NCBI GenBank assembly: GCA_947600335.1
Contig: CANQGB010000001.1
Location: forward strand, 2,443-66,442
Origin: an uncultured Bacilli bacterium
GTDB taxonomy: Bacteria > Bacillota_I > Bacilli_A > RF39 > UBA660
DNA length: 64,000 nt
Direction of reading: 5' to 3'
A program made the position numbers and the translations under genes. Below the pieces are notes generated by a model. The model saw only the letters and a program-made list of their open reading frames with translations. It did not search any database and was not told the DNA's origin. Shown here in pieces: positions 2,347 through 56,970 of this stretch (within the stretch, counting starts at the first letter, position 1; each line of letters starts with the position of its first letter).

Positions 2347-2483
2347 AACTACAAATAATTTTGCAAAATATTTTGTAGCTTTTTTAATGTTTTAAAAATG
2401 TAAATTGTTCCAAAACATTATTGACAAGATATCTGTAAAGAGGGTATATTTATTGTAGAAAATCGGGAGAGGAGAAACTCGCA

Positions 2484-5372
2484 ATGAGCAAAAAAGGATT
2501 CACAATAGTAGAATTGTTAGCTACAATAGTAATATTAGCTATTATATCAACGCTTGCTTTTGCAGCCTATAGAAATATTCAAGCAAGGATGAAAGAAACA
2601 GCTTTAAAAAATAAAATTGCCTACATAGAAAATGCTTCTTCAAATTATGCTAATGATACTGGCAACTTGGTTACAATTGTTCAAGTTTTAGTAGATGAAG
2701 GATATATTGAACCAGATGATAATAATGGGGTAGTAAAAAATCCTGTAACAGATGAGGAAATGAATTGTTTAGTTGTCAATATTAGAGAAGATCAAAACAA
2801 TTTATATGGGGAATTAACTGATGTCAAAGAATGTGATATTACTAATCTAGAAATAACTAATCGTAATTTAAATGTCGATGTTTTTGAAAAAGATACTAAT
2901 CGCAAACTAGCAGGTAACGAATGGACAAGTAAAGATGTCTATTTACAAGTAAGTTTTAAAGATAGTAGTATAAATAAGAATAATGTCAAAAAGATAACTT
3001 GGATAAGTAACAGTGGTCGAGAAGAGGTTGCAATCAATAATGATTTTGATAGTCACAATCGGAAAGATGTTACAGCTTCATTAATTATCAATGCCACATA
3101 TAAAGTAGAAATATTAATGAATGATGATGTTAAATATCAAGCCCAAACCAATGTCAAAATAGATAAACAACGACCAGAAATATATGAAGCTGAGAACTAT
3201 ATCGAAAATGAGAATAATTATACCAACAGTGATAAATTAGTCAGAATAACAGCAACCGATTTTAATGGTTCAGGCATCGCGGGATATTACATAGGAACCA
3301 GTAATGATTGTAGAACCGCCCGCTATGAATCAAGCAATAACTCTACATATGAAAAAAGTCTAGATAATGGAACCTATTATGCCTGTGCTAAAGATAAAGT
3401 TGGTAATTTATCCGAAGATATAAGTACCAAACAAATCGTAATTAATCGAGTAGATAAAGTAGTTCCAACCTGTGAATTAATGGCTACTGGAGATATGGGA
3501 AAGAATAATTGGTATGTAAGTAATATAGAAATCGCATTTAAGAGTACAGTAGATAATGAAAGTGGAATCAAAAGTGCTACGATAGATAAGCCTTTAATAA
3601 CCGAAAACACTAATGACATAGTAGTAACGGGAACAGTAGTTGATCAAGCGGGAAATAGCAGTACCTGTAATATAACAGTCAAAAAAGATAGTGATAGACC
3701 AAATTGTGAATTAGAGAAATTAGGAACATTAGGTAAAAATGACTATTATACAAGTGATGTTGATATAAAATTTAAAAGTGCCACAGATAACCTAAGTGGT
3801 GTAGCTAGTCAAAGTTTAAATCGTAATAAAATTACAGAAAACACCAACGGAGTAGATATCACTGGAACTATTGAAGACAATGCGGGTAACCAAAATACCT
3901 GTACAATCAATGTTAAAAAAGATAGTGATAAACCAAGTTGTGAATTAGAGAAATTAGGCACATTAGGCAAAAATGATTACTATACCAGTAATGTTGATAT
4001 AAGATTTAAAAGTGCAACTGATGGAACCAGTGGTGTAGCTAGTCAAAATTTAAATCGCAATAGAGTCACAGAAAACACTAATGGAGTAGATATCACCGGA
4101 ACAATCGAAGACAGAGCCGGAAATCAAAATACCTGTACAATCAATGTTAAAAAAGATAGCGAAAATCCAAGTTGTGAATTAGAAAAAGTGGGAAAATTAG
4201 GCAAAAATGATTACTATACTAGTGATGTTGAAATAAGATTTAAAACTGCCACTGATAACATGAGCGGTGTGGCTAGTCAAATTTTAAGCCAAGCTAGAGT
4301 CACGGAAAATACTAATGGTAAAAATATCACTGGAACTATTGAAGACAATGCCGGTAATAAAAGTACTTGTACAATATATGTCAAAAAAGATAGTGATAGA
4401 CCAAATTGTGAACTAGAAAAAGTAGGAACTTTAGGTAAAAATGATTACTATACCAGTAATGTTGATATAAGATTTAAAACTACAAATGATGGAACTAGTG
4501 GTATAGCTAGTCAAAATTTAAATCGCAATAGTGTTACCGAAAATACCAATGGCGTAACCATCACGGGAACTATTGAAGACAATGCCGGCAACCAAAATAC
4601 TTGTACAACAACTGTTAAAAAAGATACTGATAATCCAAGTTGTGAGCTAGAAAAAGTAGGAAAATTAGGCAACAATGATTATTTTACTAGTGATGTCGAA
4701 ATAAAATTTAAAACTACAAATGATGGTACTAGTGGTATATTAAACCAATATTTAAGTCAAAATAAAATAACCAGCGATACTAATGGTGTAACCATCACGG
4801 GAACCATTGAAGATAAAGCTGGTAATCAAAATACATGTACAACAACTGTTAAAAAAGATGCAACTCCTCCAACAGTCACTTTTAGTGGTGAATCAAATGA
4901 ATGGACCAAAAGTGACCGAGTTATAACACTAAACTGCGATGATCATGGCATTAGTGGATGCGTAGAAAACAGTAGACAAATGACATTTTCATCCAATACT
5001 AAAACAGTAACCCGATGGTTTGAAATAGCAGATAGAGCTGGCAATAAAGTTAGTATTACTCGTGAATTTAACGTGTATGTAGATAAATGCACTTCAACTG
5101 AACCTTCTTATGGTGGTTGGAGTGGCTGTAGTGCTGATTGTGGCGGTGGAACACAAACTCGAACTGTAACACATAATAGTACTTTTGGTAGCGGTTTTGC
5201 TTGTTCCTATGGAACAGACTCTCAAAGTTGCAATACCCAATCTTGTTCAAGCGGTGGCGGTGGCGGCGATAGTGGCCCAGGAAATTGCCGAAACCACTGT
5301 TCAGGAGTTTTATACTCTTGCTATGGAAGCTGTGTATGGGGACATGAAACTTGTGAATGCTGTGATTGTTAA
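2484..5372 (+). CDS. Large pilin-like surface protein: type IV prepilin N-terminus, Ig-like repeats, TSP1-like Cys-rich C-terminus
   Basis: N-terminus MSKKGFTIVELLATIVILAIIS is a class III signal (G/F cleavage site, Glu at +5). Six tandem 80-aa repeats (CELEK..GKNDYYTS..TENTNG..TGTIED.AGN..TC). C-terminus has W-S-G-C-S-A-D-C-G-G-G-T-Q-T-R plus many Cys. SD-like GGGAGAGGAG upstream. Confidence 0.75.
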   Translation: MSKKGFTIVELLATIVILAIISTLAFAAYRNIQARMKETALKNKIAYIENASSNYANDTGNLVTIVQVLVDEGYIEPDDNNGVVKNPVTDEEMNCLVVNIREDQNNLYGELTDVKECDITNLEITNRNLNVDVFEKDTNRKLAGNEWTSKDVYLQVSFKDSSINKNNVKKITWISNSGREEVAINNDFDSHNRKDVTASLIINATYKVEILMNDDVKYQAQTNVKIDKQRPEIYEAENYIENENNYTNSDKLVRITATDFNGSGIAGYYIGTSNDCRTARYESSNNSTYEKSLDNGTYYACAKDKVGNLSEDISTKQIVINRVDKVVPTCELMATGDMGKNNWYVSNIEIAFKSTVDNESGIKSATIDKPLITENTNDIVVTGTVVDQAGNSSTCNITVKKDSDRPNCELEKLGTLGKNDYYTSDVDIKFKSATDNLSGVASQSLNRNKITENTNGVDITGTIEDNAGNQNTCTINVKKDSDKPSCELEKLGTLGKNDYYTSNVDIRFKSATDGTSGVASQNLNRNRVTENTNGVDITGTIEDRAGNQNTCTINVKKDSENPSCELEKVGKLGKNDYYTSDVEIRFKTATDNMSGVASQILSQARVTENTNGKNITGTIEDNAGNKSTCTIYVKKDSDRPNCELEKVGTLGKNDYYTSNVDIRFKTTNDGTSGIASQNLNRNSVTENTNGVTITGTIEDNAGNQNTCTTTVKKDTDNPSCELEKVGKLGNNDYFTSDVEIKFKTTNDGTSGILNQYLSQNKITSDTNGVTITGTIEDKAGNQNTCTTTVKKDATPPTVTFSGESNEWTKSDRVITLNCDDHGISGCVENSRQMTFSSNTKTVTRWFEIADRAGNKVSITREFNVYVDKCTSTEPSYGGWSGCSADCGGGTQTRTVTHNSTFGSGFACSYGTDSQSCNTQSCSSGGGGGDSGPGNCRNHCSGVLYSCYGSCVWGHETCECCDC

Positions 5373-5431
5373 ATTTTAAAAATTTAAAACTTTGATTTAG
5401 AACTAAAAAATATAAAGGGAGGTGCATTCAA

Positions 5432-5932
5432 ATGAAAAAGAATAAAATAATTGTATTAGTTATATTGTTGATATTAATAATCGGGGGAGATATTTTCTTA
5501 GTCAGTCATTTTTCCTCAAAGCCCAATAATCCAGAAAATCCTAATTCTACCCCCACAACTCCCAATGATAATCCAACAACCAAAAAAGTCATTTGTACCA
5601 AAGCCGATACAATTGTTGAGGATACAATGACTTATCAATTAGATAAAAAATATTCATTTTCTGTTAACCAAGATAATAAATTATTTGACTATTTAGATGA
5701 AACAATTTATACCTTTGAAAACATCGAAGATTTTAACTCTTTTTATCAAGATTTAGAAATAACTATTGCTAATATGAAAAATAAAGCTGCCTCCATAACT
5801 AAAAATGAGGCCGACTTAACTATATATTTTTCATTAGTTGAACGTTGGGGCGACTCGGAATATTATAAAGATGGCTATGTTGATTTCTTAGAAGATAGTT
5901 TTGGTTACTCTTGTGAAATTCAAAACGCTTAA
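5432..5932 (+). CDS. hypothetical secreted or membrane-anchored protein
   Basis: N-terminal hydrophobic signal anchor followed by a Pro/Asn/Thr-rich linker. Strong RBS AAGGGAGGTG. Confidence 0.45.
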   Translation: MKKNKIIVLVILLILIIGGDIFLVSHFSSKPNNPENPNSTPTTPNDNPTTKKVICTKADTIVEDTMTYQLDKKYSFSVNQDNKLFDYLDETIYTFENIEDFNSFYQDLEITIANMKNKAASITKNEADLTIYFSLVERWGDSEYYKDGYVDFLEDSFGYSCEIQNA

Positions 5933-7135: not shown

Positions 7136-7630
7136 GTGATAAAGGTGCTTATAGATTTAAGTAAAATAACTCATAATCCCTTATCTATTGATGAAAAGAT
7201 TACTTTGGATAAGGAATTATATCAAAATGCTTCTATATTAGACATAAAAGAAATACATTTAACTGGCGAGATTGTTTATGATTACGAAGACAACTTAGCT
7301 CTTAATTTATTAGCTAAAGGGACATTTATTTTAAAAGATAGCTTAACATTAGAACCTTTAGATTATCCATTTAGTTGTGAAATCGAAGAAATAATTGAAG
7401 GAAATGAATTAAAAAATCCGAAATTTTATGAAAAAAGCAAAAATACTCTTGATATTAGTGAGATTTTATGGGAAAATATTGTTCTAGAGATTCCCATTAG
7501 TGCTACTAATCACACCGTTGAAGAAATTAAATCGTGTGGCGATGGTTGGGAACTATTGAAAGAAAATGATGAAAAAATTGATCCAAGATTAGCTAAGTTA
7601 AAAGAGCTACTTGATGAAGGGAAGGAGTGA
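7136..7630 (+). CDS. yceD: YceD/DUF177 family protein (upstream partner of rpmF)
   Basis: Conserved yceD-rpmF synteny, size and an acidic C-terminus. The true start may be the GTG at 7145, which lies after AGGTGA. Confidence 0.55.
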
Positions 7631-9370: not shown

Positions 9371-10336
9371 TTATTCAAGCGAATTTATAACAAAATTTTC
9401 AACTTTCTCACCATGCGCGACATTAAACTCGACTTTTTCCACATCATACGTATCGCGAATGGACAAAAAAATCGTATACTGAACTTCTTCAATAATTTCA
9501 GAATTATTAATTTCATCTAACAAATACTCATTAAAACTTAACTTAATTTCATTTTCTAAAATTTCATAATTCGTAATCTCAGTACTCGTATGTAAATAAC
9601 TAATTAAATTAGACTCATAAATCGGAGCACTTTTTAATTTTTCAATAATAATTTCCACTTTTTCTTTATCAGTATTAGCAATATAAGTAATTGGAACATA
9701 ATAGAATTTATCATTTTCCTTGGCTCCATAATAAATCGTAGTTTTACTAGTATCTTTCAAACTGGTAATCTCGACAACCTTATTAATTCCAAAATCCTTA
9801 TTCAACACACTTGGGAGTTTTTCTTTACTAAAGGGTAGCTCAATTAATTGTTCACCCTCGATAAAAATTAAAATATTTTTAACTTCCGGTATCTCTGTTA
9901 AAGAATAGATAATCGCCTCGATTAATTTTCGTTCTTTATCTTTATTAGTATTCAAAAAATTTTTCGAAAAATCGAGCTTCAATAAACCGTTTTCTAAACT
10001 CAAATTATTAAGGATCGTCCCACTCGGAATAATTGCATAAAAATTAGTTGGAATATATTCACTTTCATTACTATTGATAGTCAAAATGCTAATTATCTCT
10101 TTAATTCGATTTAAAATGTCTTTATTATCACTAACCATCAAATTAACGCGGGCCACTAATTCCTGTTTATCTAATAAATAAACTGCACTTTCTGCGACAT
10201 CTTCATAACTTAAACTTTGTTTATATTTTTGTTCTGTATTGGCCGTAGGAAAAAAATAAGTAATAATAAAAATAATAAGTGCTAAAGAAGCAATAGCAAT
10301 TCGCCGATAAATACCATTTTTAAGCATAAAATTCAC
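9371..10336 (-). CDS. hypothetical membrane-anchored protein (possibly GerMN-like)
   Basis: N-terminal transmembrane anchor, 321 aa. It lies next to a GerE-type regulator. The domain assignment is a guess. Confidence 0.3.
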   Translation of the reverse strand: MNFMLKNGIYRRIAIASLALIIFIITYFFPTANTEQKYKQSLSYEDVAESAVYLLDKQELVARVNLMVSDNKDILNRIKEIISILTINSNESEYIPTNFYAIIPSGTILNNLSLENGLLKLDFSKNFLNTNKDKERKLIEAIIYSLTEIPEVKNILIFIEGEQLIELPFSKEKLPSVLNKDFGINKVVEITSLKDTSKTTIYYGAKENDKFYYVPITYIANTDKEKVEIIIEKLKSAPIYESNLISYLHTSTEITNYEILENEIKLSFNEYLLDEINNSEIIEEVQYTIFLSIRDTYDVEKVEFNVAHGEKVENFVINSLE

Positions 10337-10708: not shown

Positions 10709-11212
10709 TTAACCTTGAAATTTAACGGTAATATACATTTTTTGGTCAAATTCTTCTTGAATTAAACGAATTATATTATTAGCTAAAGTACTATTATGTT
10801 CCTTACTGGCAATGGTTACGGTAATCTGGTCATTTTTAATTTTAACAAAACTTTCTAAATTATAATTTTCTTTAATTTTCTTTTCTAAACTTTCTTTTTT
10901 ACCTTGCGTCGCATTAATTGTTTGTAAAGAATTATAAGCATCATTTTTTTCTTGTAAACTAGCTGTATCATCTAAAAGAATCGTTTGGAGTTCTTCAATT
11001 TCTTCCAGCATTTCCTCTTCATCTTGAACTCTTAAAGATACTAAAATACTGCTATCTTCAGTTTTAACAACGGAATCTACTTTTTCTTCTTGAACTACGG
11101 AATTAGTTGCAATTTGTAAAATATCATCATCTTTAATCGTTACATAATAAATACTTAAAACTAAAATTAAACTAAATAGTGTCACAAACCATAAACCTTG
11201 TTTATTAATCAT
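10709..11212 (-). CDS. hypothetical membrane-anchored protein
   Basis: N-terminal transmembrane segment and an acidic coiled region. No family recognised. Confidence 0.3.
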   Translation of the reverse strand: MINKQGLWFVTLFSLILVLSIYYVTIKDDDILQIATNSVVQEEKVDSVVKTEDSSILVSLRVQDEEEMLEEIEELQTILLDDTASLQEKNDAYNSLQTINATQGKKESLEKKIKENYNLESFVKIKNDQITVTIASKEHNSTLANNIIRLIQEEFDQKMYITVKFQG

Positions 11213-12084: not shown

Positions 12085-12151
12085 GTTAATTTTTTTTTAA
12101 TTTAAAAGGAAATTTCAAATTTTCATTGTAAATATATAGTAGGAGGTGAAA

Positions 12152-14224
12152 ATGAGAAAAGAATTAATTATAATTCAACAAGACCTAAAAGATTGTGGTG
12201 TATGCTGTTTACAATCGATTATAAAATATTATCATGGCTATGTACCATTAGAAAAAATCCGTATCGATACGGCTACGTCTATGGAGGGGACAAATGCATA
12301 TCAATTAATCAAAGCCGCTAAAAGTTATGGATTTAATTCGCTTGGTAAAAGATTACCTAGTATCAACGATATTAATGATGAATTAATATATCCTTGCATT
12401 GCTCATATTGCTACTAAAAAATATAGCCATTTTGTTGTTATTTATAAGAGTACTAAAGATAGCTTAATTTTAATGGACCCAGCTAAAGGTAAAGTCGTTC
12501 AAAAAAAAGTTGATTTTATGAAAACGTGGACTAATGTCATTATCGAACTTTATCCTCAAAATAAAATTTTAAATATTAAAACGCAAAATTTCATTCCCTT
12601 ATTTTCTAAAAAACTTATTTCGCAAAATAAAAACATATTTTTCAAAATTTTCCTATATAAAATATTCCTTATTTTCTTTAGTTTAGTCTTAAGTTTTCAT
12701 TTTAAAATTAATCTTAGTCTTTTTAATAATCAAGCTATCAAAACTTTTATTATGATATCAACATATTTTATTTTAGGTTATTTTTTCAAAGTAGTTTTTA
12801 ATTACTTCGAGAATTATCAAAAAAATCTTTTGGAAAAAAAGATAGATACTGAAGTTTACCATGATTTTTTATCGCACTTATTTTTACTTCCGGATAGTTT
12901 TATTAAAAATCGGACCTCGGGGGAGATTATGACTAGAGTAGAGGAGTTAAGTAGTATTAAAGAATTTTATTCGAATATTTTCTTATCTTTAGTCCTCGAA
13001 AGTATTTTATTAATCATTTGTAGTATTGTTCTTTTTCATATTAATTTAACTTTATTTTTAACTTTAGGTTTATTTCTAGTTATTTATATTTTGATTGGAA
13101 CAATCTACAGCCGCCGGTTATTTAAAAAAATTATCCAAAATATAGAAGCTACTTCTATATTCAATGCTAAGGTTTTAGAAAATTTAGATGTTTATACGAC
13201 CTTAAAAAATTTAGGTGTCTTAAAGGCAGCTAATCAAGAATTAAATTATATAACTAACTGTTATCTTAAAAATAACTATCAATTAAACGAGTACTTTTTA
13301 AACTTTAATACTTTCTGTGATTTTTTAGAACAGTTGCTTAACTATTTTATTATTACTTTTGGTTTCATTTTAATTTACCAAAATAAATTAAGTATTGTCG
13401 ATTTATATACGTTTCTAATTTTAATTTTTTACCCCATTAATTATATAAAAAATCTTATTATCATAATCCCTAAATATACTTATATTAAAGCAATTATTCA
13501 TAAAATCAACGATTATTTTGATATCCCAATCGCACAAGAAGAAAATAGTACTGAGTTTTCTTATGGGGATATTCGAATAACAAATTTAACTTATTGCCTC
13601 AATTATCAAGAATATATATTTCAAAATTTAAACTTAGTTATTTTAAAAAACAGTCATGTTATGTTAAAAGGTTCATCAGGATGTGGCAAATCAACCCTTT
13701 GTAAATTAATAACTAGGTCCATCACAGATGAGTATATGCCCATAACTATCGATGGCCATTTAATCAACACTTTGACCCAAAAATCTCTAGAACAAAACAT
13801 TACTTACGTCGGTCAAAGAGAAAATTTAATTCAAGATACGATTAAGAATAATATTTTATTCTATCGCCAAATATCCGAAGAAAAGTTAAACCAAATTATT
13901 TCACTATGTGCTTTAGATGAACTAATTAAGAAAAAGCCTTTAGGTTTAGAAACTTTTCTCTTTAAAGACAGTTCTAATTTATCGGGTGGTGAAAAACAAA
14001 GAATAATCTTAGCCCGAGCCTTATTAAATGATTTTAAAATTTTAATCTTAGATGAGGCTTTAAGCGAACTAAATGAAGATTTAGAAATTGGAATAATAAA
14101 AAATTTAAGAAAAAATTATCCTGATAAAACTATCATTTATGTTACGCATAAAAATCATGATGAGTATTTTGACGATGTCATTGATTTAAGCAAAAAAAAG
14201 GAGGTTATTAATGATTTTATCTAA
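12152..14224 (+). CDS. bacteriocin-processing ABC transporter with N-terminal C39 peptidase domain (ATP-binding/permease)
   Basis: N-terminal LKDCGVCCLQSII (C39 catalytic Cys). Transmembrane domain. Walker A GSSGCGKST, ABC signature LSGGEKQRI, Walker B ILILDEA. RBS AGGAGGTGA. Confidence 0.85.
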   Translation: MRKELIIIQQDLKDCGVCCLQSIIKYYHGYVPLEKIRIDTATSMEGTNAYQLIKAAKSYGFNSLGKRLPSINDINDELIYPCIAHIATKKYSHFVVIYKSTKDSLILMDPAKGKVVQKKVDFMKTWTNVIIELYPQNKILNIKTQNFIPLFSKKLISQNKNIFFKIFLYKIFLIFFSLVLSFHFKINLSLFNNQAIKTFIMISTYFILGYFFKVVFNYFENYQKNLLEKKIDTEVYHDFLSHLFLLPDSFIKNRTSGEIMTRVEELSSIKEFYSNIFLSLVLESILLIICSIVLFHINLTLFLTLGLFLVIYILIGTIYSRRLFKKIIQNIEATSIFNAKVLENLDVYTTLKNLGVLKAANQELNYITNCYLKNNYQLNEYFLNFNTFCDFLEQLLNYFIITFGFILIYQNKLSIVDLYTFLILIFYPINYIKNLIIIIPKYTYIKAIIHKINDYFDIPIAQEENSTEFSYGDIRITNLTYCLNYQEYIFQNLNLVILKNSHVMLKGSSGCGKSTLCKLITRSITDEYMPITIDGHLINTLTQKSLEQNITYVGQRENLIQDTIKNNILFYRQISEEKLNQIISLCALDELIKKKPLGLETFLFKDSSNLSGGEKQRIILARALLNDFKILILDEALSELNEDLEIGIIKNLRKNYPDKTIIYVTHKNHDEYFDDVIDLSKKKEVINDFI

Positions 14225-23711: not shown

Positions 23712-24566
23712 ATGAAAGTTGATATTATATGTCCATTATATAATGCTGAAAAGTATCTTAAAAAATTGCACGAATCATTTTTGAATCAAAAAAAGGTGAA
23801 TTTACATAAAATTAAATATATATTGACTGAAAGCAATGATTTTACATTAGACATATTAAAAAAATTAAAAAGCAATAAATGTGAATTTGTCTTAATAAAA
23901 AAAGAAGACTTTTCACACAGTTTAGTAAGAGAAAATGCTGCTTTTGAAAGCAAAGCGGATATAATTGTTTTTGTAACGCAAGATATTGAAATAAAAAACG
24001 ATAATTGGTTAGAAAATCTTGTAAAACCAATTGAGAAAGACAAAGTAGCTGCGACATATAGTAGACAACTAACAAAATATAATAATATTGAAAAATATAC
24101 TAGAGAAGCAAATTATCCAGAAAAGTCTTTAATAAAATCTAAAATAGACATTGATAAACTAGGATTAAAAACTTTCTTTTCATCCGATGCTTCTGCTGCA
24201 ATAAAAAGAGATATTTTTGTAGAACTTAATGGATACGATCATAAAGATTTGCCTATTAGTGAAGATATGTATTTTACCTATAAGCTTATTATGAGCGGCC
24301 ATAAAATAAAGTATTGTGCTGATTCAGTAATATATCATTCACATAATTTTACCTTAAGTGAAATTTATAATCGTTATAAATTAACAGGAGAATTTTTTAA
24401 AGAAAATAGTTACTTAGATAAATATGGAACTGATAGCTCAGGATTTACTCTAGCTAAATATGTTTTTAAAAGAATTATTCAAGAACATAGATTTACTCTT
24501 TTAATTAGATTCCCTTTTGATATGGGTGCTAGGTTAATTGGCATGAAAGTTGGGAAGTGGTTTTAA
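23712..24566 (+). CDS. glycosyltransferase family 2
   Basis: N-terminal DIICPLYNAEKYL, an internal DxD-type acidic region (SEDM), GT-A fold features. Confidence 0.65.
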   Translation: MKVDIICPLYNAEKYLKKLHESFLNQKKVNLHKIKYILTESNDFTLDILKKLKSNKCEFVLIKKEDFSHSLVRENAAFESKADIIVFVTQDIEIKNDNWLENLVKPIEKDKVAATYSRQLTKYNNIEKYTREANYPEKSLIKSKIDIDKLGLKTFFSSDASAAIKRDIFVELNGYDHKDLPISEDMYFTYKLIMSGHKIKYCADSVIYHSHNFTLSEIYNRYKLTGEFFKENSYLDKYGTDSSGFTLAKYVFKRIIQEHRFTLLIRFPFDMGARLIGMKVGKWF

Positions 24567-25799
24567 ATGATCGATTCAAATAAAAATGAACTAAAAAATA
24601 TTATCATTATTAATGATTTTGACTATGTACAAGGTGGAGCCAGTAAAGTTGCGATAGATACAGCAAATTCACTGGCTGAAAAAAATTATAATGTAATATT
24701 TTTTTGTGGAATATCAAGTTCCTTATCTCAACTAAATACAAAGGTAAAAAAAATATGTACCAATCAATACGAAGCTTTAAAAGATAAAAATCGAGTTCGA
24801 GGATTAATAAATGGGCTTTATAATTTTAAATCAGAAAAAATATTTAATAATTTATTAAAAGAATATGACAATAAAAATACTATTATCCATATCCATGGTT
24901 GGTCAAAATGTTTGTCTAGTAGTGTTATAAATGCTGGCTTTAAAAAAAAGTTTAAAATTGTATTGACTATGCATGATTACTTTACGGCATGTCCTAATGG
25001 TGGTTTTTTTAATTATCCAAAAAATGAAATTTGTAAATTGAAAGCATTATCTAGTAAGTGTATGATGTGTAATTGTGATTCAAGGAATTATTTATATAAA
25101 ATCTATAGGATAATAAGACAATTAATACAAAAAAATATTGTAAAATTAAACAAAAAAATAGAAAACGTTATATCAATATCTGATTTTAGTGAAAAAATAC
25201 TTAAGCCTTATCTTCCAAAAGATAAAGTAAATATTTATAGAGTATATAATCCAATTGAAATTATGAATGTTAAAAATGATATTAGTAAAAATCAATATTA
25301 CTTATTTGTTGGACGATTATCTCCTGAAAAAGGTGTGGAAACTTTTTGCAATGCAATTAGCAAAAGCAAGAAAAAAGGGATAGTTGTTGGAGATGGACCT
25401 GAAATGAAAAGATTGTCTTTAAAATATCCTGAAATAGATTTTGTTGGATGGAAAAATAAGCATGAGGTCGCTGATTATATGATTAAAGCAAAAGCATTAA
25501 TTTTCCCAAGTTTATGGTATGAAACAGTTGGCCTTACTTTACTTGAAGCCAATATGGTAGGCGTTCCTGGCATAGTAAGGAAAAATATTGCCACATCTGA
25601 ATTTGTACAAGATAATGTAAATGGCTTTTTATTTTCCAATGATGAAGATTTAATTAAAATATTGAAAAAATACGACACTATGTCTAAAGATACACTGTTA
25701 AATATGTCTAGATTAGCTAAATCAAATGCTAAAAATTATACTTATCAAAAATATATATATGATTTAGAAAAATGTTATAAAAATATAATTAATTCATAA
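24567..25799 (+). CDS. glycosyltransferase family 4 (GT-B)
   Basis: C-terminal EANMVGVPGIV...EFVQDNVNGFLF matches the GT4 E-x7-E motif region. Confidence 0.7.
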   Translation: MIDSNKNELKNIIIINDFDYVQGGASKVAIDTANSLAEKNYNVIFFCGISSSLSQLNTKVKKICTNQYEALKDKNRVRGLINGLYNFKSEKIFNNLLKEYDNKNTIIHIHGWSKCLSSSVINAGFKKKFKIVLTMHDYFTACPNGGFFNYPKNEICKLKALSSKCMMCNCDSRNYLYKIYRIIRQLIQKNIVKLNKKIENVISISDFSEKILKPYLPKDKVNIYRVYNPIEIMNVKNDISKNQYYLFVGRLSPEKGVETFCNAISKSKKKGIVVGDGPEMKRLSLKYPEIDFVGWKNKHEVADYMIKAKALIFPSLWYETVGLTLLEANMVGVPGIVRKNIATSEFVQDNVNGFLFSNDEDLIKILKKYDTMSKDTLLNMSRLAKSNAKNYTYQKYIYDLEKCYKNIINS

Positions 25800-25842
25800 T
25801 GTTGAAAATAAATTAAATTTTTATTTAAAGGAGGTAAAATTT

Positions 25843-27225
25843 ATGCTTTATCCATTTGCCTATATTTTATTTATCATTATTTTATATTTAATTTTAACTA
25901 GTAAAGATTTTGATTCATTATTTAAAAGATTTCTTTTATTAGAATGTTTCTTTAGTTGCTCAAGAATGAATATAGGATATTTAACTCATGTATTTAATTC
26001 TGAAATAGAGTACAATGATTTAATATTGGGCATAGTTTTTTGTCTATCAATAATACAAATATTTAGAAAGAGAAAGGTAAATAAAAAGGTTTTTAAATAT
26101 TCAATTATTTTAATAAGTGTTGTGTTAATTAGTATGTTAAATTGTTATTTGAATCCAGCGGCTATAGAAGTTGTAGGTTTTAATAGTAGTTTAGATAAAT
26201 ACTTTCGTGGTGACTTGTCACAATTAACTATGGTTCATTTTTCCATACAAAGCATAATGATGTTTGCAAGACTTATTATATTTATAACAATAATTAATGC
26301 TACAAAAGTATCTTTTTCAAAAGAAGAAATTTTAAATTTTTGTCAAAAGTTGTTGAAATATTTAAAAATTTTAATATTATATGGTTTATTTGAATTTATA
26401 ATAAAATTTATTTTTCATATTGATATCAGTACATATATATATGGTATTTTTGGACATGGTGTTTCTAGTCCCAATATAGTTAGTCGATTGTCGGGGTTAT
26501 CTAGAGAGCCAAGCTATTACTCATTAGCATTATTTATTTATCTATTTCTATCATTTTTATACAATCAATACTATAACAAAAATTTTAAAGTTAATGCTTG
26601 GATGATTTTAGCATTGTTTTTAGGATTTGTTTCAACCTCTTTTTCATTTGTTATTTGCTTTGTTTCTTTGACTTTATTATATATTAATAATTATCGTGAT
26701 TTTATGTTAACAGTTAAAAAAAAGAAACAACTGTTTAATATAATTTTTGGAATTTTATTAATTTCAGGGATTTTTATAATAGTAAATCAAAAATTCCTTG
26801 ATTTTGCTTTAGCTAGTAACTATACATCAATAAATAGGTTAGGTAATTCAATTATCCAAATAAAAAATGGCTTTAAAGGACTCTATATTTTAGGAAAAGA
26901 TTACTCTTCAGAAACTGTTAGGCTGATAGGGGCAATAATTGCTTTTAAAGCTGGTCTTCACCGCCCACTATTTGGTCTTGGCCTCGGCACCGTATATTGT
27001 GTAAATGGTGTTGTGTCAATAATATCTAATATTGGAATTTTAGGATTTATATGTTGGCTATTGCTTTTATTCAAAGGTTATACAAATAATATTAATTTTG
27101 TAGGAATTATTATAATATTACTAACTGTGCTTTTCTGTAACGATTTATATACGCTTTACGATGTGAGTTATGTAATTTTATTACCATTATATTCATTATA
27201 TTATGAAAATAGGAGGTTTAATTAA
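25843..27225 (+). CDS. O-antigen polymerase/ligase-like (Wzy family) membrane protein
   Basis: Ten or more transmembrane helices with a large periplasmic-type loop, 460 aa, located inside a glycan cluster. Confidence 0.55.
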   Translation: MLYPFAYILFIIILYLILTSKDFDSLFKRFLLLECFFSCSRMNIGYLTHVFNSEIEYNDLILGIVFCLSIIQIFRKRKVNKKVFKYSIILISVVLISMLNCYLNPAAIEVVGFNSSLDKYFRGDLSQLTMVHFSIQSIMMFARLIIFITIINATKVSFSKEEILNFCQKLLKYLKILILYGLFEFIIKFIFHIDISTYIYGIFGHGVSSPNIVSRLSGLSREPSYYSLALFIYLFLSFLYNQYYNKNFKVNAWMILALFLGFVSTSFSFVICFVSLTLLYINNYRDFMLTVKKKKQLFNIIFGILLISGIFIIVNQKFLDFALASNYTSINRLGNSIIQIKNGFKGLYILGKDYSSETVRLIGAIIAFKAGLHRPLFGLGLGTVYCVNGVVSIISNIGILGFICWLLLLFKGYTNNINFVGIIIILLTVLFCNDLYTLYDVSYVILLPLYSLYYENRRFN

Positions 27226-28356
27226 ATGAAAAAATGTATTGTATTTATTTCCATGAATACTAAAAAAGAGGGGGCAGAGAAATCTTTAATTTCTTTACAA
27301 AAATATTTAATTAATAGCAAGAATATTAAAACAATTACAATAATTCCAGAAAATGGTAAAATTGAAGAATTATTGAAAGAAAATAATATAGAATATATGA
27401 TCTGTAATTTTAGAAACTGCATAAATCTTAATAAAGGAAAACAATATATTAAAGGAAATCTAAAAAAAATATATAATCAAATTCAGGCAAAAAAATTAGC
27501 CAAAAAACTAAAAAAATATAATATTCAGATTGTTCATACTAATACATTAACCACTGATTTTGGCTATTATTTAGCAAAAGAATTAAATGCAAAACATATT
27601 TGGCATATCCGAGAATTAGCCAAAAAACAATTTAATTTTGATTTTGAATTAGGTAATGATTATATAATAAAATGCGTAAATCAGTCGTCAAAAATAATTT
27701 GTAACTCAGAATCAGTAAAAGAATATTATTCTAATTATTTTGATAAATCCAAAATTATTTGTGTTTATAATGGCGTAAGCACTGCAGAAAGCGGAAAAGA
27801 AGATTGGAATAATCCAAAATTTAAAATGGTTTTAGCAGGCCGCTTAAGTAGTGAAAAATGTCAAATGCTTGCAATAAAAGCATGTAAGATCTTAAAAGAA
27901 TCTAATTATAATAATTTTATATTAGATTTATACGGTGATGGAATTGATAAAGATATTTTAGAAAAAAATATAATTGATTTAAACTTAGAAAAATATATTA
28001 AATTAAAAGGCTTTTCCGATAATGTACCTTTTAAAAATTATCATTTAGGTTTAATGTGTAGTAGTAATGAAGCTTTTGGAAGAGTAACAGTAGAGTATAT
28101 GATGAATTCGCTTCCAGTTATAGGTGCTAATTCATTTGGAACAAAGGAGATTATTAAGGATAACATATCTGGCTATCTATTTAATGTTGATGATGCTAAA
28201 GATTTAGCAGATAAAATTATGATATTTTACAATAATCGAAAATTATGTCAAAAAATGGGAAAAGAAGGTAGAAAAATAGCATTGAGAAATTTTTCAGAAA
28301 ATAGCTATTGTGAAAATATTTATAAAATATATCAAAAAATTTTTTTGGAGGAATAG
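27226..28356 (+). CDS. glycosyltransferase family 4
   Basis: GT-B architecture. C-terminal EAFGRVTVEYMMNSLPVIGANSFGTKEII..GYLF. Confidence 0.7.
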   Translation: MKKCIVFISMNTKKEGAEKSLISLQKYLINSKNIKTITIIPENGKIEELLKENNIEYMICNFRNCINLNKGKQYIKGNLKKIYNQIQAKKLAKKLKKYNIQIVHTNTLTTDFGYYLAKELNAKHIWHIRELAKKQFNFDFELGNDYIIKCVNQSSKIICNSESVKEYYSNYFDKSKIICVYNGVSTAESGKEDWNNPKFKMVLAGRLSSEKCQMLAIKACKILKESNYNNFILDLYGDGIDKDILEKNIIDLNLEKYIKLKGFSDNVPFKNYHLGLMCSSNEAFGRVTVEYMMNSLPVIGANSFGTKEIIKDNISGYLFNVDDAKDLADKIMIFYNNRKLCQKMGKEGRKIALRNFSENSYCENIYKIYQKIFLEE

Positions 28357-28362
28357 ATAGAA

Positions 28363-29292
28363 ATGAATAAAATTAGTATAGTTATCACAACATTTAATGA
28401 TGAAAAAAATATTATCAATGTATTAAAAAATATATATGTTGACCAAAGTTATAAAGTTGATGAAATAGTAATTTGCGATGGTGGCTCAAAAGATAAGACA
28501 GTAAATGTTATTAAAAATTATTCAAAAGAAAATAAAATTAATATTAAATTAATATCTGATGGTAAGCGAAGAAATATTTCAGAAGGCCTAAATCAAGCTA
28601 TTAAAATGGCTACTAATTATTGGATTTTAATTATTGGAACAGGTAATAGTTATCAAAATGATTTTATCGAAAAAATAATAAATGCTCAGTCAAAACATAA
28701 AGTAGATCTAGTTTATGGGCCAATTTTAGGTATTGACAAAACTTTTTTTGGAAAAATTTTTAACCAATATTTTTTAAATGGTAATAAATCAATTGATATG
28801 GGGGCAAGTAATCATGGGGTGCTAATTAATAAAAAAATATTTGAAAAATATGGATATTTTTATGAAAAATTTATATATGCAGGAGAAGATACAGAATTTT
28901 ATATAAGGTTAAAAAATAATTTTGTAAAAGCTTATTATGAAAAAGAGGCTATTCTTTATTGGGATACACCTCAAACTGTAAATGAATATTTAAAAAAAAT
29001 GAGGGTTAATTCAATAGCTGATTGGCAAATATTTAAGCGTCGGAAAGTATGGATAAAAATCATCACCCCAATCATTCTTTTAATATTATACTCAATATTA
29101 GTTTTATTAAATCCGTGTTTTACATTATTAATCTTACCATTAATTGCATGTATTGCTGTAAAGAAGAGAACATTTAATATTTTAGCTATACTATTAGGAA
29201 TTATTACTAAGTATGTTATGGTGTATTATTATTTAAAAAATATAAAATATTCTAATTCAAAATATCATATTCAAAAAAATTATGAATTATAA
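28363..29292 (+). CDS. glycosyltransferase family 2 with C-terminal transmembrane anchor
   Basis: N-terminal ISIVITTFNDE..ICDGGSKD (GT-A DxD region) plus C-terminal transmembrane helices. Confidence 0.65.
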   Translation: MNKISIVITTFNDEKNIINVLKNIYVDQSYKVDEIVICDGGSKDKTVNVIKNYSKENKINIKLISDGKRRNISEGLNQAIKMATNYWILIIGTGNSYQNDFIEKIINAQSKHKVDLVYGPILGIDKTFFGKIFNQYFLNGNKSIDMGASNHGVLINKKIFEKYGYFYEKFIYAGEDTEFYIRLKNNFVKAYYEKEAILYWDTPQTVNEYLKKMRVNSIADWQIFKRRKVWIKIITPIILLILYSILVLLNPCFTLLILPLIACIAVKKRTFNILAILLGIITKYVMVYYYLKNIKYSNSKYHIQKNYEL

Positions 29293-29311
29293 ATAAGAGG
29301 AGTGGTAGTTT

Positions 29312-30526
29312 ATGAAATATTTGATATTAGGTGCTGGACCAGCAGGATTAACAGTCGCAAATAAATTAAAAGAATTAGGCGAAGAAGATTTTTTAGTTTT
29401 AGAAAAGGAAAATGAAGCTGGGGGATTATGTCGCTCCGTAATGGTAGATGGATCACCATTTGATATTGGTGGCGGCCATTTTTTAGATGTTAGGCGTGCA
29501 AATGTTAATAAATTTTTATTTAATTTTATGCCTGAAAATGAATGGAATTTATATGAACGAAATAGTCAAATTAAAGTAAATAATAATATAATAAATCATC
29601 CAATAGAAGCAAATATTTGGCAAATGAAAATTGAAGATCAAGTTGAATATCTAAAATCTATTGCAATAGCTGGATGTAATGTTGGGCAGCCGATGCCTAC
29701 AAAATTTACAGATTGGATATATTGGAAATTGGGAGCAAAAATAGCTGATGATTATATGATACCTTATAATCAAAAAATGTTTAGCAAAGAACTTGATGAA
29801 CTTGGTACATACTGGTTAGAAAAATTACCAAATGTTAGTTTTGAAGAAACACTATTGTCTTGTTTAGAAAAAAAAGCTTATGGTAAGCAACCAGGACACG
29901 CACAATTCTATTATCCTAAAAAATATGGCTATGGAGAATTATGGCTAAGAATGGCAAAAAATATAAACAATAAAATATTGTATGAAAAAGATGTCAATGA
30001 AATAAATTTTGATACATTAACTGTTATAACAAGCGATGGTGAAGAATATCAAGCCGAAAATATTATTACGACAATACCATGGATGGAATTTTCAAAAATC
30101 TATGGAATGCCTAAAGAAATAAAAGAATCAATAAGCAAATTAAAATATAGTTCTATTCAAACAGAATACTTTAATAATAGTTTAGATACTGATGCACATT
30201 GGATATATTATCCTGATCCTCAATTGCCTTATCATCGAATTTTAGTAAGGAGCAACTTTTGCACTAATAGTCGAGGATATTGGACAGAAACAAATTCTGA
30301 GCGAATAAATACAGAAATTCCAAATTCAAATTTTAAATATCTAAACAAATATGCTTATCCTTTAAATACAATAGACAAACCTGAAATAATGAAACGGTTA
30401 TTAGAATGGTGTAAAAATAAAAATGTTTATGGCTTAGGAAGATGGGGAGAGCACCAACATTATAATTCTGATGTTACAGTAGATTTAGCCCTTCAATTAA
30501 CTGATGATTTAATCAATAAAAATTAA
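29312..30526 (+). CDS. FAD/NAD(P)-binding oxidoreductase, UDP-galactopyranose mutase-like
   Basis: N-terminal ILGAGPAGL..LEKENEAGGLCRS dinucleotide-binding motif. Size and context suit a Glf-like enzyme. Confidence 0.45.
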   Translation: MKYLILGAGPAGLTVANKLKELGEEDFLVLEKENEAGGLCRSVMVDGSPFDIGGGHFLDVRRANVNKFLFNFMPENEWNLYERNSQIKVNNNIINHPIEANIWQMKIEDQVEYLKSIAIAGCNVGQPMPTKFTDWIYWKLGAKIADDYMIPYNQKMFSKELDELGTYWLEKLPNVSFEETLLSCLEKKAYGKQPGHAQFYYPKKYGYGELWLRMAKNINNKILYEKDVNEINFDTLTVITSDGEEYQAENIITTIPWMEFSKIYGMPKEIKESISKLKYSSIQTEYFNNSLDTDAHWIYYPDPQLPYHRILVRSNFCTNSRGYWTETNSERINTEIPNSNFKYLNKYAYPLNTIDKPEIMKRLLEWCKNKNVYGLGRWGEHQHYNSDVTVDLALQLTDDLINKN

Positions 30527-30573
30527 ATAAAATTATTTTTAAACAATCAAAAAAGGAAGGAATTAAAAACATC

Positions 30574-31629: not shown

Positions 31630-31705
31630 ATTTAAGTTTCATTTTAGCACTTTAAATATATTATTAATTTTTGATGAAAAATATTATTTATTTGGAGGTT
31701 ATAAA

Positions 31706-32599: not shown

Positions 32600-32629
32600 T
32601 TAAAAAAATAAAATATAATAAATGTAGAT

Positions 32630-34090: not shown

Positions 34091-34096
34091 TTTTAT

Positions 34097-44026: not shown

Positions 44027-44211
44027 ATATACGCAATTGGTTTATTTAACTGAAATTTTAATTCCACGTCAAAAAGAATAGAGTGATTTCTCTAAAAAGT
44101 CTCGGGTTGATTTGTTAAAATCTCACGGAATGATTTTTCAAAATTACACGGTTTTTACTTGACATTTCTTTAGAACATAATATAAACTTATAATAAGTGA
44201 GGGATAAAACT

Positions 44212-48393: not shown

Positions 48394-48405
48394 GAAGGAA
48401 TTACA

Positions 48406-49364: not shown

Positions 49365-49446
49365 TTAATTTTAAATAAATTTAAAATTTTGCTATTATTG
49401 AGAAATCAATTTTTTTAAAGATTAATAAGATAGGAGTCTAATTATA

Positions 49447-49926: not shown

Positions 49927-49959
49927 AATTAAATATTTAATTTTGAAAGAAGTGAAAAT

Positions 49960-53197: not shown

Positions 53198-53248
53198 TAA
53201 TATTAAATTTATGAATAATAAAAAATTAAAAGAATGAAGGAATAAAAT

Positions 53249-54196: not shown

Positions 54197-54213
54197 ACTA
54201 ATAGGAGTTATGT

Positions 54214-55446: not shown

Positions 55447-55460
55447 GAAGTGATAAATTT

Positions 55461-56957: not shown

Positions 56958-56970
56958 AAGAAGTGATATC

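What the first reader, a model, noticed from the sequence alone, without database searches (positions are those of the whole stretch)
3470..4910. Six near-identical 240-bp tandem DNA repeats inside the pilin-like gene
Six consecutive 80-aa units (CELEK(L/V)G(T/K)LGKNDYYTS..TENTNG..ITGTIED.AGNQNTCT..VKKDSD.P.) show high nucleotide identity. In-frame tandem repeats of this size commonly expand and contract by recombination. That would give strain-to-strain length variation of a surface fibre and could also cause assembly collapse.
Basis: seen in the sequence. Interest (0 to 1): 0.5.

Follow-up and report, generated by a model that had tools for sequence, protein, structure and literature searches.

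The report
Diverged Ig-domain stalk in pilin-like adhesin
The repeats are real. They encode six immunoglobulin-like beads forming the stalk of a large pilin-like surface protein of an uncultured gut Firmicute, but the copies are old and diverged, so this is an ordinary multidomain stalk rather than an unstable repeat.

Summary
The tandem array exists, in frame, inside a 962-aa ORF (2484-5372, +) with a genuine prepilin signal. The details differ from the finding.

- The unit is 234 bp / 78 aa, not 240 / 80, and the array spans 3471-4874.
- It is not near-identical. Units 1-5 share 71-86% nt identity; unit 0 shares only 56-62% with them.
- The longest exact repeat is 43 bp. Synonymous divergence between units is 0.53-1.19 with dN/dS 0.13-0.34, and there is no significant gene-conversion tract.

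Each unit is predicted to fold as an Ig-like (PKD/FN3/BIg-type) beta-sandwich. Together with three further Ig-like domains, the units form a stalk between the N-terminal pilin module and a C-terminal thrombospondin-type-1 domain plus a Cys-rich tail.

Unit number differs between distant family members (0-8). The closest relative has two units, and collinear DNA homology stops exactly at the unit1/unit2 junction. Within every >=90%-identity cluster I could check, unit number is constant. What varies there is the Cys-rich tip and a small downstream partner gene.

So expansion has occurred over evolutionary time. Ongoing strain-level slippage and assembly collapse are not supported, though no second strain of this species covers the array.

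The parts
2421..2450 (+). Promoter-like site: TTGACA, 18 nt spacer, TATATT (11 of 12 consensus matches).
   Evidence: Consensus scan. The TTGAC and GGTATATT blocks are conserved upstream of the relative's gene even though its upstream neighbours differ. In the L001/L084 pair, DNA homology starts about 80 bp before the start codon.
2465..2474 (+). Shine-Dalgarno-like GGGAGAGGAG, 9 nt before the ATG.
   Evidence: Read directly from the sequence.
2484..5372 (+). 962-aa ORF encoding a modular type IV pilin-like protein (stop codon included).
   Evidence: ORF list and translation. The identical protein P0001 is held in a public collection from an NCBI source.
2484..2843 (+). Pilin module, aa 1-120. 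Leader MSKKG, then F+1 and E+5, a hydrophobic alpha1 helix (aa 8-59) and a small beta head.
   Evidence: Pfam N_methyl and TIGR02532 both pass their cut-offs. AF2 predicts helix 8-59 followed by strands, with pLDDT 75-92. There are weak PDB sequence hits to pilins at aa 2-74. G5, T7 and E10 are invariant in the family alignment.
2856..3470 (+). Two conserved all-beta domains, D1 (aa 125-228) and D2 (aa 232-329). With the pilin module they form the roughly 340-aa N-terminal module shared by the family.
   Evidence: AF2 pLDDT is 84-95. The profile of aa 1-345 finds 441 50%-identity clusters at E<=1e-30. D2 also matches the broad unit profile.
3471..3704 (+). Unit 0 (aa 330-407). This is the old, divergent copy, orthologous to the first unit of the relative.
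   Evidence: 56-62% nt identity to units 1-5, but 79% nt identity to P0002 unit 0. The two group together with 100% bootstrap support.
3705..4874 (+). Units 1-5 (aa 408-797), five 234-bp copies. All are most similar to the second unit of the relative.
4875..5093 (+). A seventh Ig-like domain of a different subtype (aa 798-870, 'SGESNEWTKSDR...'). It resembles the repeat units of P0007.
   Evidence: Matches the broad unit profile at aa 799-875. Sequence compared by eye with the P0007 units. The AF2 model is low-confidence here.
5109..5246 (+). Thrombospondin type-1 repeat-like domain (aa 876-921), WSGCSADCGGGTQTRT...SQSCNTQSC.
   Evidence: Pfam TSP_1 scores 25.2 bits against a cut-off of 21.6. 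PDB sequence hits to thrombospondin-1 TSRs have E 0.006. Nine other family representatives carry TSP1-family Pfam hits; the TSP_1 model itself clears its cut-off in six of them.
5247..5369 (+). Gly-rich linker and Cys-rich C-terminal tail (aa 922-962, 11 Cys).
   Evidence: Translation. 38 of 111 family representatives have at least 8 Cys in the last 90 aa. The tail region is the hypervariable part in relatives.
5432..5932 (+). Partner gene: 166 aa with an N-terminal transmembrane helix, a Pro-rich linker and a C-terminal domain. Function unknown.
   Evidence: A gene of about 160-175 aa follows the pilin-like gene in the window, L001, L002, L003, L084 and L086, in six different neighbourhoods. 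It is absent in L085. No Pfam family was found.

Best explanation
The repeats encode the stalk of a modular type IV pilin-like adhesin.

**Architecture.** The protein starts with a prepilin (class III) signal and a pilin module. These would anchor it in the membrane or, after cleavage, in a type IV filament. Nine Ig-like beta-sandwich domains follow in series. Six of them are the 78-aa units of the finding. At the far end sit a thrombospondin-type-1-like domain and a Cys-rich tail, which are the likely ligand-binding tip.

**Proposed role of the units.** They act as rigid spacer beads. Their number sets how far the tip is held from the filament or cell surface. This resembles Periscope Proteins, but with the polarity reversed.

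**History.** Units 1-5 share a common origin with the single second unit of the closest relative. The duplications are about as old as the split between the two lineages. Since then the copies have diverged under purifying selection. They now offer poor substrates for homologous recombination, so the array is an old, largely stabilised expansion and not a contingency locus.

**Shown:** the anatomy of the repeats, their divergence, the predicted fold, the prepilin motif, the family-wide range of unit number, and constancy of unit number within close clusters.

**Inferred:** surface display, the spacer function, the adhesive role of the tip, and incorporation into a pilus.
For: - **Array anatomy and divergence.** Six 78-aa units; 71-86% nt identity for units 1-5; longest exact repeat 43 bp.
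- **Age and selection.** dS 0.53-1.19 and dN/dS 0.13-0.34 between units, against dS 0.88 for the orthologous unit 0 pair. Differences are concentrated at third codon positions. No significant conversion tracts.
- **Pilin identity.** N_methyl and TIGR02532 pass their cut-offs. A 52-residue alpha1 helix is predicted. G5, T7 and E10 are invariant.
- **Tip.** TSP_1 is above its gathering score, and TSP1-family hits recur in nine other family representatives.
- **Copy number across the family.** 0-8 per protein. The relative has two units, and homology stops at the unit1/unit2 junction.
- **Stability within clusters.** P0002 cluster, 6 sequences, all two units. P0011 cluster, 8 full-length sequences, 1276-1284 aa. 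P0005 cluster, 5 sequences, 658-660 aa. P0008 cluster, 4 sequences, 565-577 aa. P0007 cluster, 2 full-length sequences, 798 aa.
- **Literature frame.** Modular pilins are widespread, with 264 architectures, some with many repeated domains (PMC8179133). Variable-length stalks of tandem domains project a functional domain (PMC8201768).
Against: - No type IV pilus or Com machinery gene, prepilin peptidase or second pilin lies anywhere in the 64-kb window. Related loci are also stand-alone genes among housekeeping genes. Filament incorporation is therefore untested.
- Units 2-5 and everything 3' of them are modelled at low confidence because the alignment is shallow there.
- The spacer role is an analogy. 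The units could bind ligands themselves.
- Adjacent units 1-5 are still 72-87% identical in protein. That is well above the <50% typical of stable multidomain proteins (PMC8201768), so occasional unequal recombination cannot be excluded.
- No second strain of this species covers the array.
- The unit phylogeny is poorly resolved. Amplification in the window lineage cannot be distinguished from loss of units in the relative.
Confidence: 0.7

Rival explanations
1. The array is an active recombination hot spot of the Periscope / alpha-C / Rib type, and unit number changes between strains on short time scales, varying fibre length and antigenicity.
For: - The repeats are long, in frame and exactly in register.
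- One adjacent pair (units 1 and 2) reaches 87% protein and 86% DNA identity, with 35-43 bp exact runs between some units.
- Unit number differs across the family.
- Independent multi-unit arrays exist in other lineages, for example P0011 with an A-B-A-B-A-B pattern.
- Periscope proteins are defined by such stalks (PMC8201768).
Against: - dS between units is 0.53-1.19, with no significant conversion tract.
- Mean identity is below the >=80% protein identity used to detect Periscope repeats, and far below the near-identity of the most variable examples.
- Unit number is constant in all five close clusters examined.
- In those clusters the variable part is the C-terminal tail, not the stalk.
Confidence: 0.12
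2. The protein is not a filament subunit. The prepilin-type N-terminus serves only as a membrane anchor or export signal, and the string of Ig-like domains spans the cell wall and capsule to expose the tip. On this view, stalk length is matched to envelope thickness.
For: - The gene is an orphan with its own promoter, with no pilus genes within 64 kb here or next to the relatives.
- The window carries three polysaccharide-synthesis loci, so a thick surface layer is plausible.
- A membrane-anchored partner gene follows the pilin-like gene in six of seven loci.
Against: - The class III signal is fully canonical, with Gly at -1, Phe at +1 and Glu at +5, and is invariant across the family. Such conservation is expected if a prepilin peptidase and filament packing act on it.
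- Pilin genes are often unlinked to the machinery genes (general knowledge of type IV pili).
- The rest of the genome could not be examined.
Confidence: 0.25
3. The units are themselves the functional, ligand-binding elements, and the amplification increases avidity through multivalent binding rather than adding length.
For: - dN/dS of 0.13-0.34 shows that every copy is maintained.
Against: - No binding-site motif was identified.
- The conserved positions (D-x-x-SG and D-x-AGN turns, two Cys) look structural and are shared with unrelated surface proteins.
Confidence: 0.15
4. The array is an assembly artefact, that is, collapsed, expanded or chimeric repeats in a metagenome-assembled contig.
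For: - The source is evidently a MAG-type contig. The matching protein P0001 is a singleton in the protein collection.
- In a relative's cluster, two proteins lose homology inside the repeat region, consistent with chimeric or truncated contigs.
- Two independent low-coverage contigs of this species end 220-320 bp 3' of the array.
Against: - The reading frame is intact over 2.9 kb. All six units have distinct sequences with mostly synonymous differences.
- No shared k-mer exceeds 43 bp, so normal assembly k-mers resolve the array.
- Collapse of additional truly identical copies cannot be excluded, but nothing suggests it.
Confidence: 0.03

Closest known systems
Modular type IV pilins (Streptococcus sanguinis PilB with a vWA module and PilC with a lectin module; catalogue in Raynaud et al. 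2021, PMC8179133)
   Same: - An N-terminal class III signal plus a pilin module, with non-pilin domains grafted on C-terminally and expected to be presented at the filament tip.
- The catalogue already includes multi-repeat architectures, and one protein with N_methyl followed by two TSP1 repeats.
   Different: - This protein is much larger (962 aa), with nine Ig-like domains between the pilin module and the tip.
- It is not located in a pilus gene cluster.
- It is paired with a small membrane-anchored partner gene.
- None of its behaviour has been tested experimentally.
Periscope Proteins (SasG/Aap, Rib/alpha C, Sgo_0707 SHIRT, CdrA; Whelan et al. 2021, PMC8201768)
   Same: - Tandem, similar, folded domains whose N and C termini lie at opposite ends.
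- These form a rod that projects a functional end domain.
- The unit size (78 aa) is close to that of Rib (79 aa; from memory).
- Relatives of the unit hit Big_13, a Pfam family built in that study.
   Different: - Unit identity is lower (64-87% protein, 71-86% DNA) than in the most variable Periscope proteins.
- No strain-level change in unit number was observed.
- The anchor is an N-terminal prepilin signal instead of a C-terminal LPXTG, so the polarity is reversed and the functional tip is C-terminal.
Large tip-located minor pilins of type IVb pili (CofB, TcpB)
   Same: A pilin module followed by beta-rich domains that carry the adhesive or partner-binding function. CofB also binds a separately encoded partner, CofJ (the CofB architecture is described in PMC8179133; CofJ is from general knowledge).
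   Different: - No sequence similarity was found.
- CofB has a beta-repeat domain and one beta-sandwich, not a series of tandem Ig-like units.
- CofB is encoded inside the pilus operon.
Giant Ig-repeat surface proteins (Salmonella SiiE BIg domains; Aureispira GhpA grappling hook)
   Same: They are the best structural matches to the whole model and, like it, are strings of Ig-like beads.
   Different: - They use other secretion routes (T1SS, T9SS) and have other anchors.
- Sequence identity is only 11-17%.
Eukaryotic thrombospondin type-1 repeats (thrombospondin-1, ADAMTS, apicomplexan TRAP)
   Same: The C-terminal domain passes the Pfam TSP_1 cut-off. It has the WSxCS...CGGG...R motif and six Cys counting the one just upstream of the W.
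   Different: It has only one Trp and one Arg of the usual Trp/Arg ladder. It occurs in a bacterial protein, and its ligand is unknown.

Membership tests
Type IV pilin / class III signal peptide protein | A short basic leader ending in Gly, an aromatic or Met residue at +1, Glu at +5, and about 20 hydrophobic residues. | tested here: met
   The N-terminus reads MSKKG|FTIVELLATIVILAIISTLAFAA. Pfam N_methyl scores 22.5 against 21.2. TIGR02532 scores 24.3 against 16.3. G5, T7 and E10 are invariant in the family.
Type IV pilin / class III signal peptide protein | A long N-terminal alpha1 helix (about 50 residues) packed on a beta-sheet head. | tested here: met
   AF2 predicts helix 8-59 followed by strands 63-115, with pLDDT 75-92. 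This is a prediction only.
Type IV pilin / class III signal peptide protein | Processing by a prepilin peptidase and polymerisation by a type IV filament machinery. | not testable with these tools
Type IV pilin / class III signal peptide protein | Genomic linkage to pilus or competence machinery genes. This is usual but not obligatory. | tested here: not met
   There is only one prepilin motif in the window. None of about 55 ORFs scanned is a T2SSE or T2SSF protein or an A24 peptidase. The relatives are also stand-alone genes.
Modular pilin (sense of Raynaud et al. 2021) | An N-terminal IPR012902/N_methyl motif plus at least one extra domain not specific to type IV pilus biology. | tested here: met
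   N_methyl plus TSP_1 (both above cut-off), plus Ig-like domains. The definition is taken from PMC8179133.
Periscope Proteins (Whelan et al. 2021) | [quoted passage not shown] | tested here: inconclusive
   The length criterion is met (78 aa). For identity, only units 1/2 (87%) and 2/4 (85%) exceed 80%. Adjacent pairs are 53, 87, 74, 72 and 74%.
Periscope Proteins (Whelan et al. 2021) | Repeat number varies between closely related strains. | tested here: inconclusive
   No second strain of this species covers the array. In five clusters of relatives at >=90% identity, unit number is constant. It differs only between distant lineages.
Periscope Proteins (Whelan et al. 2021) | The repeats fold as domains with termini at opposite ends, forming a rod that projects a functional end domain. 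| tested here: met
   Ig-like sandwich model; short Pro-containing linkers (D-x-P-x-C) between units; TSP1/Cys-rich domain at the distal end. The rod shape itself is inferred.
HYR domain (PF02494) | A match to the full 81-position profile. | tested here: not met
   The whole-protein score (40.6 bits) comes from summed partial hits that cover only profile positions 60-80. A single unit scores 16 bits against the 21.7 cut-off.
Ig-like beta-sandwich fold (PKD/FN3/BIg) | A two-sheet beta-sandwich superposable on solved Ig-like domains. | tested here: met
Thrombospondin type-1 repeat (PF00090) | A profile match above the gathering score, with the conserved Cys pattern and the WSxCS / CGxG motif. 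| tested here: met
   25.2 bits against 21.6, covering aa 878-921. The motif WSGCSADCGGG is present. Thrombospondin-1 TSRs are the top PDB sequence hits at E 0.006. The Trp/Arg ladder is reduced to one W and one R.

The most novel reading that the evidence does not exclude
The gene belongs to a large, apparently undescribed family of stand-alone, self-promoted giant pilin-like genes of uncultured gut Bacilli. The profile of the N-terminal module finds at least 441 50%-identity clusters.

In this family the promoter and the body (pilin module plus Ig stalk) stay 92-99% identical, while the Cys-rich or TSP1 C-terminal tip and the downstream membrane-anchored partner are replaced as cassettes. 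The cassette as a whole also sits at different chromosomal sites.

That layout parallels polymorphic toxin/immunity pairs and phage tail-fibre tip/chaperone pairs. It would mean a pilus-presented, exchangeable recognition or effector tip with a cognate partner, with lineage-specific stalk length as a second tuning knob.
Probability: 0.3. Interest if true: 0.55.

Novelty: new member of a known kind. Interest (0 to 1): 0.3.

Why it matters
For the finding as stated, the value is mainly corrective. The repeat is a normal string of Ig-like domains. It is neither a fragile, near-identical array nor an assembly hazard.

It does add a clear example of domain amplification in the stalk of a modular type IV pilin-like protein. 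The anchor polarity is opposite to that of the well-studied Periscope Proteins, and the array is at an aged stage where the copies have drifted to 71-86% DNA identity.

The wider family may be more useful. It is a common but uncharacterised class of giant pilin-like proteins in uncultured gut Bacilli. Some members carry a eukaryote-like thrombospondin type-1 domain at the tip, and the tips and partner genes appear to be swapped between otherwise near-identical genes. If these are adhesins, they are candidates for host or mucus recognition by organisms that have no cultured representatives.

Tried and rejected
- **Strain variants of this gene.** The exact protein is a singleton among about 15 billion sequences and is not on record in the gene-position index. 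Two metagenome-contig scans found no relative, one with the protein and one with a window+P0002 alignment. The neighbouring TmcAL-like gene led to two more contigs of the same species. They are 100% identical and end at 5092 and 5191, before the array.
- **The genome-contig scan.** It was swamped by the generic pilin N-terminal pattern. It recovered neither this genome nor close relatives, and served only to place distant relatives in uncultured Bacilli/Tenericutes gut MAGs.
- **Order of duplications from a neighbour-joining tree of units.** Only unit0 + P0002 unit0 is supported (100%). The branching among units 1-5 and the relative's second unit is unresolved (support 5-55%). I therefore do not claim whether the extra units were gained here or lost in the relative.
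- **Gene conversion between units.** Not significant after correction.
- **TRF's period-468 row as a two-unit super-repeat.** The identity matrix does not show an alternating pattern here, unlike P0011.
- **Whole-protein AF2 model.** Beyond aa 485 it is low-confidence, and I did not use it.
- **HYR assignment.** Rejected as a partial-motif match.
- **Partner protein.** No Pfam family, and only a meaningless sub-threshold NCBIfam hit.
- **Rfam and tRNA scans.** Only one tRNA-Arg, unrelated to the finding.
- **Terminator scan.** None found around the gene.
- **Literature search for TSP1 on bacterial pilins.** Nothing specific, apart from one catalogued architecture.
Full report
**Observation**

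Tandem Repeats Finder reports an array at 3681-4859 with period 234 (5.0 copies, 82% matches, score 1355), plus a period-468 description. The array lies in one long ORF, 2484-5372 on the + strand, 962 aa. Splitting the protein at each 'CEL' gives six consecutive units of exactly 78 aa (234 bp). They occupy aa 330-797 = nt 3471-4874, with no indels.

So the unit is 234 bp / 78 aa, not 240 / 80, and the array ends 36 nt before the coordinate given in the finding.

Identity is moderate:
- Units 1-5 share 71-86% DNA identity and 64-87% protein identity.
- Unit 0 shares 56-62% DNA identity and 45-55% protein identity with the rest.
- The longest exact repeat anywhere in the array is 43 bp. Only 3 of 1361 41-mers are repeated, and no 55-mer is.

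The description 'six near-identical repeats' is therefore only partly right.

**Age and selection**

Differences between units are concentrated at third codon positions. Nei-Gojobori estimates give dS 0.53-1.19 and dN/dS 0.13-0.34 among units 1-5.

The closest relative is P0002 (644 aa, from a gut MAG, GCA_947630615.1). It has two units. Window unit 0 is orthologous to its first unit (79% nt identity, dS 0.88, 100% bootstrap). Units 1-5 are all most similar to its second unit (73-81% nt).

At the DNA level, collinear homology between the two genes (81.5%) runs from the start codon to window 3936. That is the unit1/unit2 junction.

The duplications are thus roughly as old as the divergence of the two lineages. 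Every copy has since been kept under purifying selection. A GENECONV-like permutation test on the 91 polymorphic sites finds no significant shared tract (best p 0.015 uncorrected for 10 pairs, units 2 and 4). The branching order among units 1-5 and the relative's second unit is unresolved, so gain here and loss in the relative cannot be told apart.

**What the units are**

The whole-protein model is confident for aa 1-485. Foldseek matches it to strings of Ig-like domains: the GhpA grappling hook, DSCAM, complement C3 MG domains and SiiE.

Pfam has no good model for the unit. The HYR hit is a sum of partial matches to the last 20 profile positions. Relatives hit Big_13 and DUF7743, and NCBI names similar domains 'OmpL47-type'.

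Each unit has two Cys, at positions 1 and 66. From Ig topology, these lie at the start of the first and last strands, so an intradomain disulfide is plausible. This is an inference and was not tested.

**The protein as a whole**

- **Signal.** The N-terminus MSKKG|FTIVELL... is a canonical class III (prepilin) signal. It passes Pfam N_methyl and TIGR02532.
- **Pilin module.** AF2 predicts a 52-residue alpha1 helix followed by a small beta head.
- **Conserved N-terminal module.** Two beta domains follow (aa 125-329). With the pilin part they form a roughly 340-aa module that is conserved across a large family. A profile of this module finds 441 50%-identity clusters at E<=1e-30 among 1.84 billion representatives.
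- **Stalk and tip.** After the six units come a seventh Ig-like domain of a different subtype (aa 798-870) and a thrombospondin type-1-like domain (aa 876-921). The TSP_1 score is 25.2 bits against a cut-off of 21.6, and thrombospondin-1 TSRs are the top PDB sequence hits. A Gly-rich linker and a tail with 11 Cys end the protein.
- **Classification.** This is the architecture of a 'modular pilin'. That class is known to be widespread and diverse (more than 1,200 proteins, 264 architectures, some with many repeated domains; PMC8179133). Its catalogue already lists one N_methyl-TSP1-TSP1 protein.

**Context**

The gene has a strong promoter-like site (TTGACA, 18 nt spacer, TATATT at 2421-2450) that is conserved upstream of the relative's gene. 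A 166-aa gene follows it (5432-5932), encoding an N-terminal transmembrane helix and an uncharacterised domain.

A partner of 160-175 aa follows the pilin-like gene in six of seven loci examined, each in a different housekeeping neighbourhood.

No pilus or competence machinery, prepilin peptidase or second pilin motif occurs in the 64-kb window.

The organism is a low-GC (about 25%) Firmicute with sporulation genes. Its TmcAL-like protein is at most 64% identical to any other in the database. The few named hits are 'Bacilli bacterium' MAGs.

**Does unit number vary?**

Across the family it does. Among the 111 top representatives that carry the prepilin motif, the count of unit-like domains ranges from 0 to 8, and this protein has the maximum. 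Other lineages have multi-unit arrays of their own, for example P0011 with six 88-aa units in an A-B-A-B-A-B pattern.

Within close clusters it does not:

| Cluster | Sequences | Length / units |
|---|---|---|
| P0002 | 6 | 636-644 aa, all two units |
| P0011 | 8 full-length | 1276-1284 aa |
| P0005 | 5 | 658-660 aa |
| P0008 | 4 | 565-577 aa |
| P0007 | 2 full-length | 798 aa |

Two shorter P0007-cluster members lose homology inside the repeat region and look like chimeric or truncated contigs, not true variants. Members of one cluster sit in different genomic contexts. They may therefore be paralogues or transferred copies rather than alleles, which weakens 'strain-level' as a label but not the constancy of unit number.

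For this species itself, the only other contigs are identical and stop short of the array. The direct test remains undone.

**What does vary**

In the P0002 and P0007 clusters, the body of the protein is 94-95% identical. The roughly 90-aa Cys-rich tail after a conserved 'HSYPA' motif is only 30-39% identical.

At the DNA level:
- In the P0002-cluster pair, identity is 94% from about 80 bp upstream of the start codon to the tail boundary.
- It then falls to roughly the level expected by chance, and the same drop is seen in the P0007-cluster pair.
- In the P0002-cluster pair it recovers over a 145-bp island spanning the gene's 3' end and the partner's 5' end (85.5%).
- The partner is then only 33% identical (57/175 residues).

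Variation in this family is therefore concentrated in the tip and partner, not in stalk length. This rests on two pairs only. I record it as a lead, not a result.

**Mechanism and comparison**

The best-supported reading is that the units are spacer beads of a stalk that holds a C-terminal recognition tip away from a type IV filament or the cell surface. The closest functional analogue is the Periscope Protein class (PMC8201768).

This array fails or only marginally meets that class's working criteria. Only two unit pairs reach 80% identity, and no close-relative variation is seen. The anchor polarity is also reversed.

At 72-87%, protein identity between adjacent units 1-5 is still above the <50% typical of stable multidomain proteins. 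The array is best described as an old amplification that is drifting towards ordinary multidomain divergence.

Homologous recombination between copies 14-29% diverged, with exact runs of at most 43 bp, is expected to be rare. This follows from established knowledge of minimal efficient processing segments and of mismatch-repair barriers to recombination between diverged repeats.

**Verdict**

This is a real feature, ordinary in kind: a new member of the modular-pilin and Ig-repeat-stalk classes.

Noticed in passing
window 5109-5246 (aa 876-921 of the ORF): There is a thrombospondin type-1 repeat-like domain at the C-terminal end of a bacterial pilin-like protein (Pfam TSP_1 above cut-off). Nine other 50%-identity representatives of the same family also combine N_methyl with one or two TSP1 domains, and one such architecture is catalogued in Raynaud et al. 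2021, Dataset S1.
   Followed up: partly
relatives: L001 6001-7935 vs L084 3001-4911; L085 3001-5397 vs L086 1106-3502: The Cys-rich C-terminal tail is hypervariable. The gene bodies are 92-99% identical in DNA, but similarity drops to roughly chance level after a conserved 'HSYPA' motif (tails 30-39% aa identity). In the L001/L084 pair a 145-bp conserved island spans the gene's 3' end and the partner's 5' end. This looks like cassette replacement of the tip.
   Followed up: partly
window 5432-5932 (+); L001 7945-8430; L002 10201-10683; L003 9838-10329; L084 4921-5448; L086 3505-4032: A conserved downstream partner gene of about 160-175 aa (N-terminal TM helix, Pro-rich linker, conserved C-terminal Cys) has no Pfam family. 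It is only 33% identical between two loci whose pilin bodies are 94% identical, so it may co-vary with the tip. It is absent in L085.
   Followed up: partly
window 2421-5932 and the six related loci above: The promoter + pilin-like gene (+ partner) unit sits in a different housekeeping neighbourhood in every locus examined: after an AI-2E transporter, a two-component system, LeuRS, rpsR or rpsP/KhpA, and before rpsJ/rplC. This holds even for proteins from the same >=90% cluster. It suggests paralogy or mobility of the cassette.
   Followed up: no
window 7540-7626: An otherwise 100% identical contig from another ENA sample (L083) lacks these 87 bp at the 3' end of the YceD-like gene, which fuses it to the L32 gene. 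This is either a real in-frame deletion variant or a low-coverage (2.4x) assembly error.
   Followed up: no
P0080, P0081 (members of the P0007 cluster): Two proteins follow P0007 through part of its repeat region and then lose homology: P0080 switches to unrelated sequence, and P0081 ends in a short unrelated stretch on a 1.9-kb contig. They may be chimeric or broken metagenome contigs at tandem Ig-like repeats. Assembly trouble may therefore occur in this gene family even though it is unlikely in the window.
   Followed up: partly
window 23712-35182, 47344-57969, 60318-63379: There are three separate surface-polysaccharide biosynthesis loci (glycosyltransferases, flippases, Wzy-like, acyltransferases, PGA_cap). 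They include a duplicated Alg14/Alg13-like pair (48406-49364 and 60318-61300). They are separated by DUF4143/AAA_14 ATPase genes (37424-38353, 44197-45489, 58832-60046) and an IS110-family transposase (45486-46697, - strand).
   Followed up: no
window 9371-10336 (-), 10709-11212 (-), 12146-14224 (+): Sporulation-related genes (GerM-like Germane domain, SpoIIIAH-like) indicate a spore-forming lineage. Next to them is a C39-peptidase ABC exporter of the bacteriocin-export type. No small precursor ORFs near it were examined.
   Followed up: no
window 5068-5427 (-): A 119-aa antisense ORF overlaps the Cys-rich tail of the pilin-like gene. It is probably a chance ORF and was not examined.
   Followed up: no
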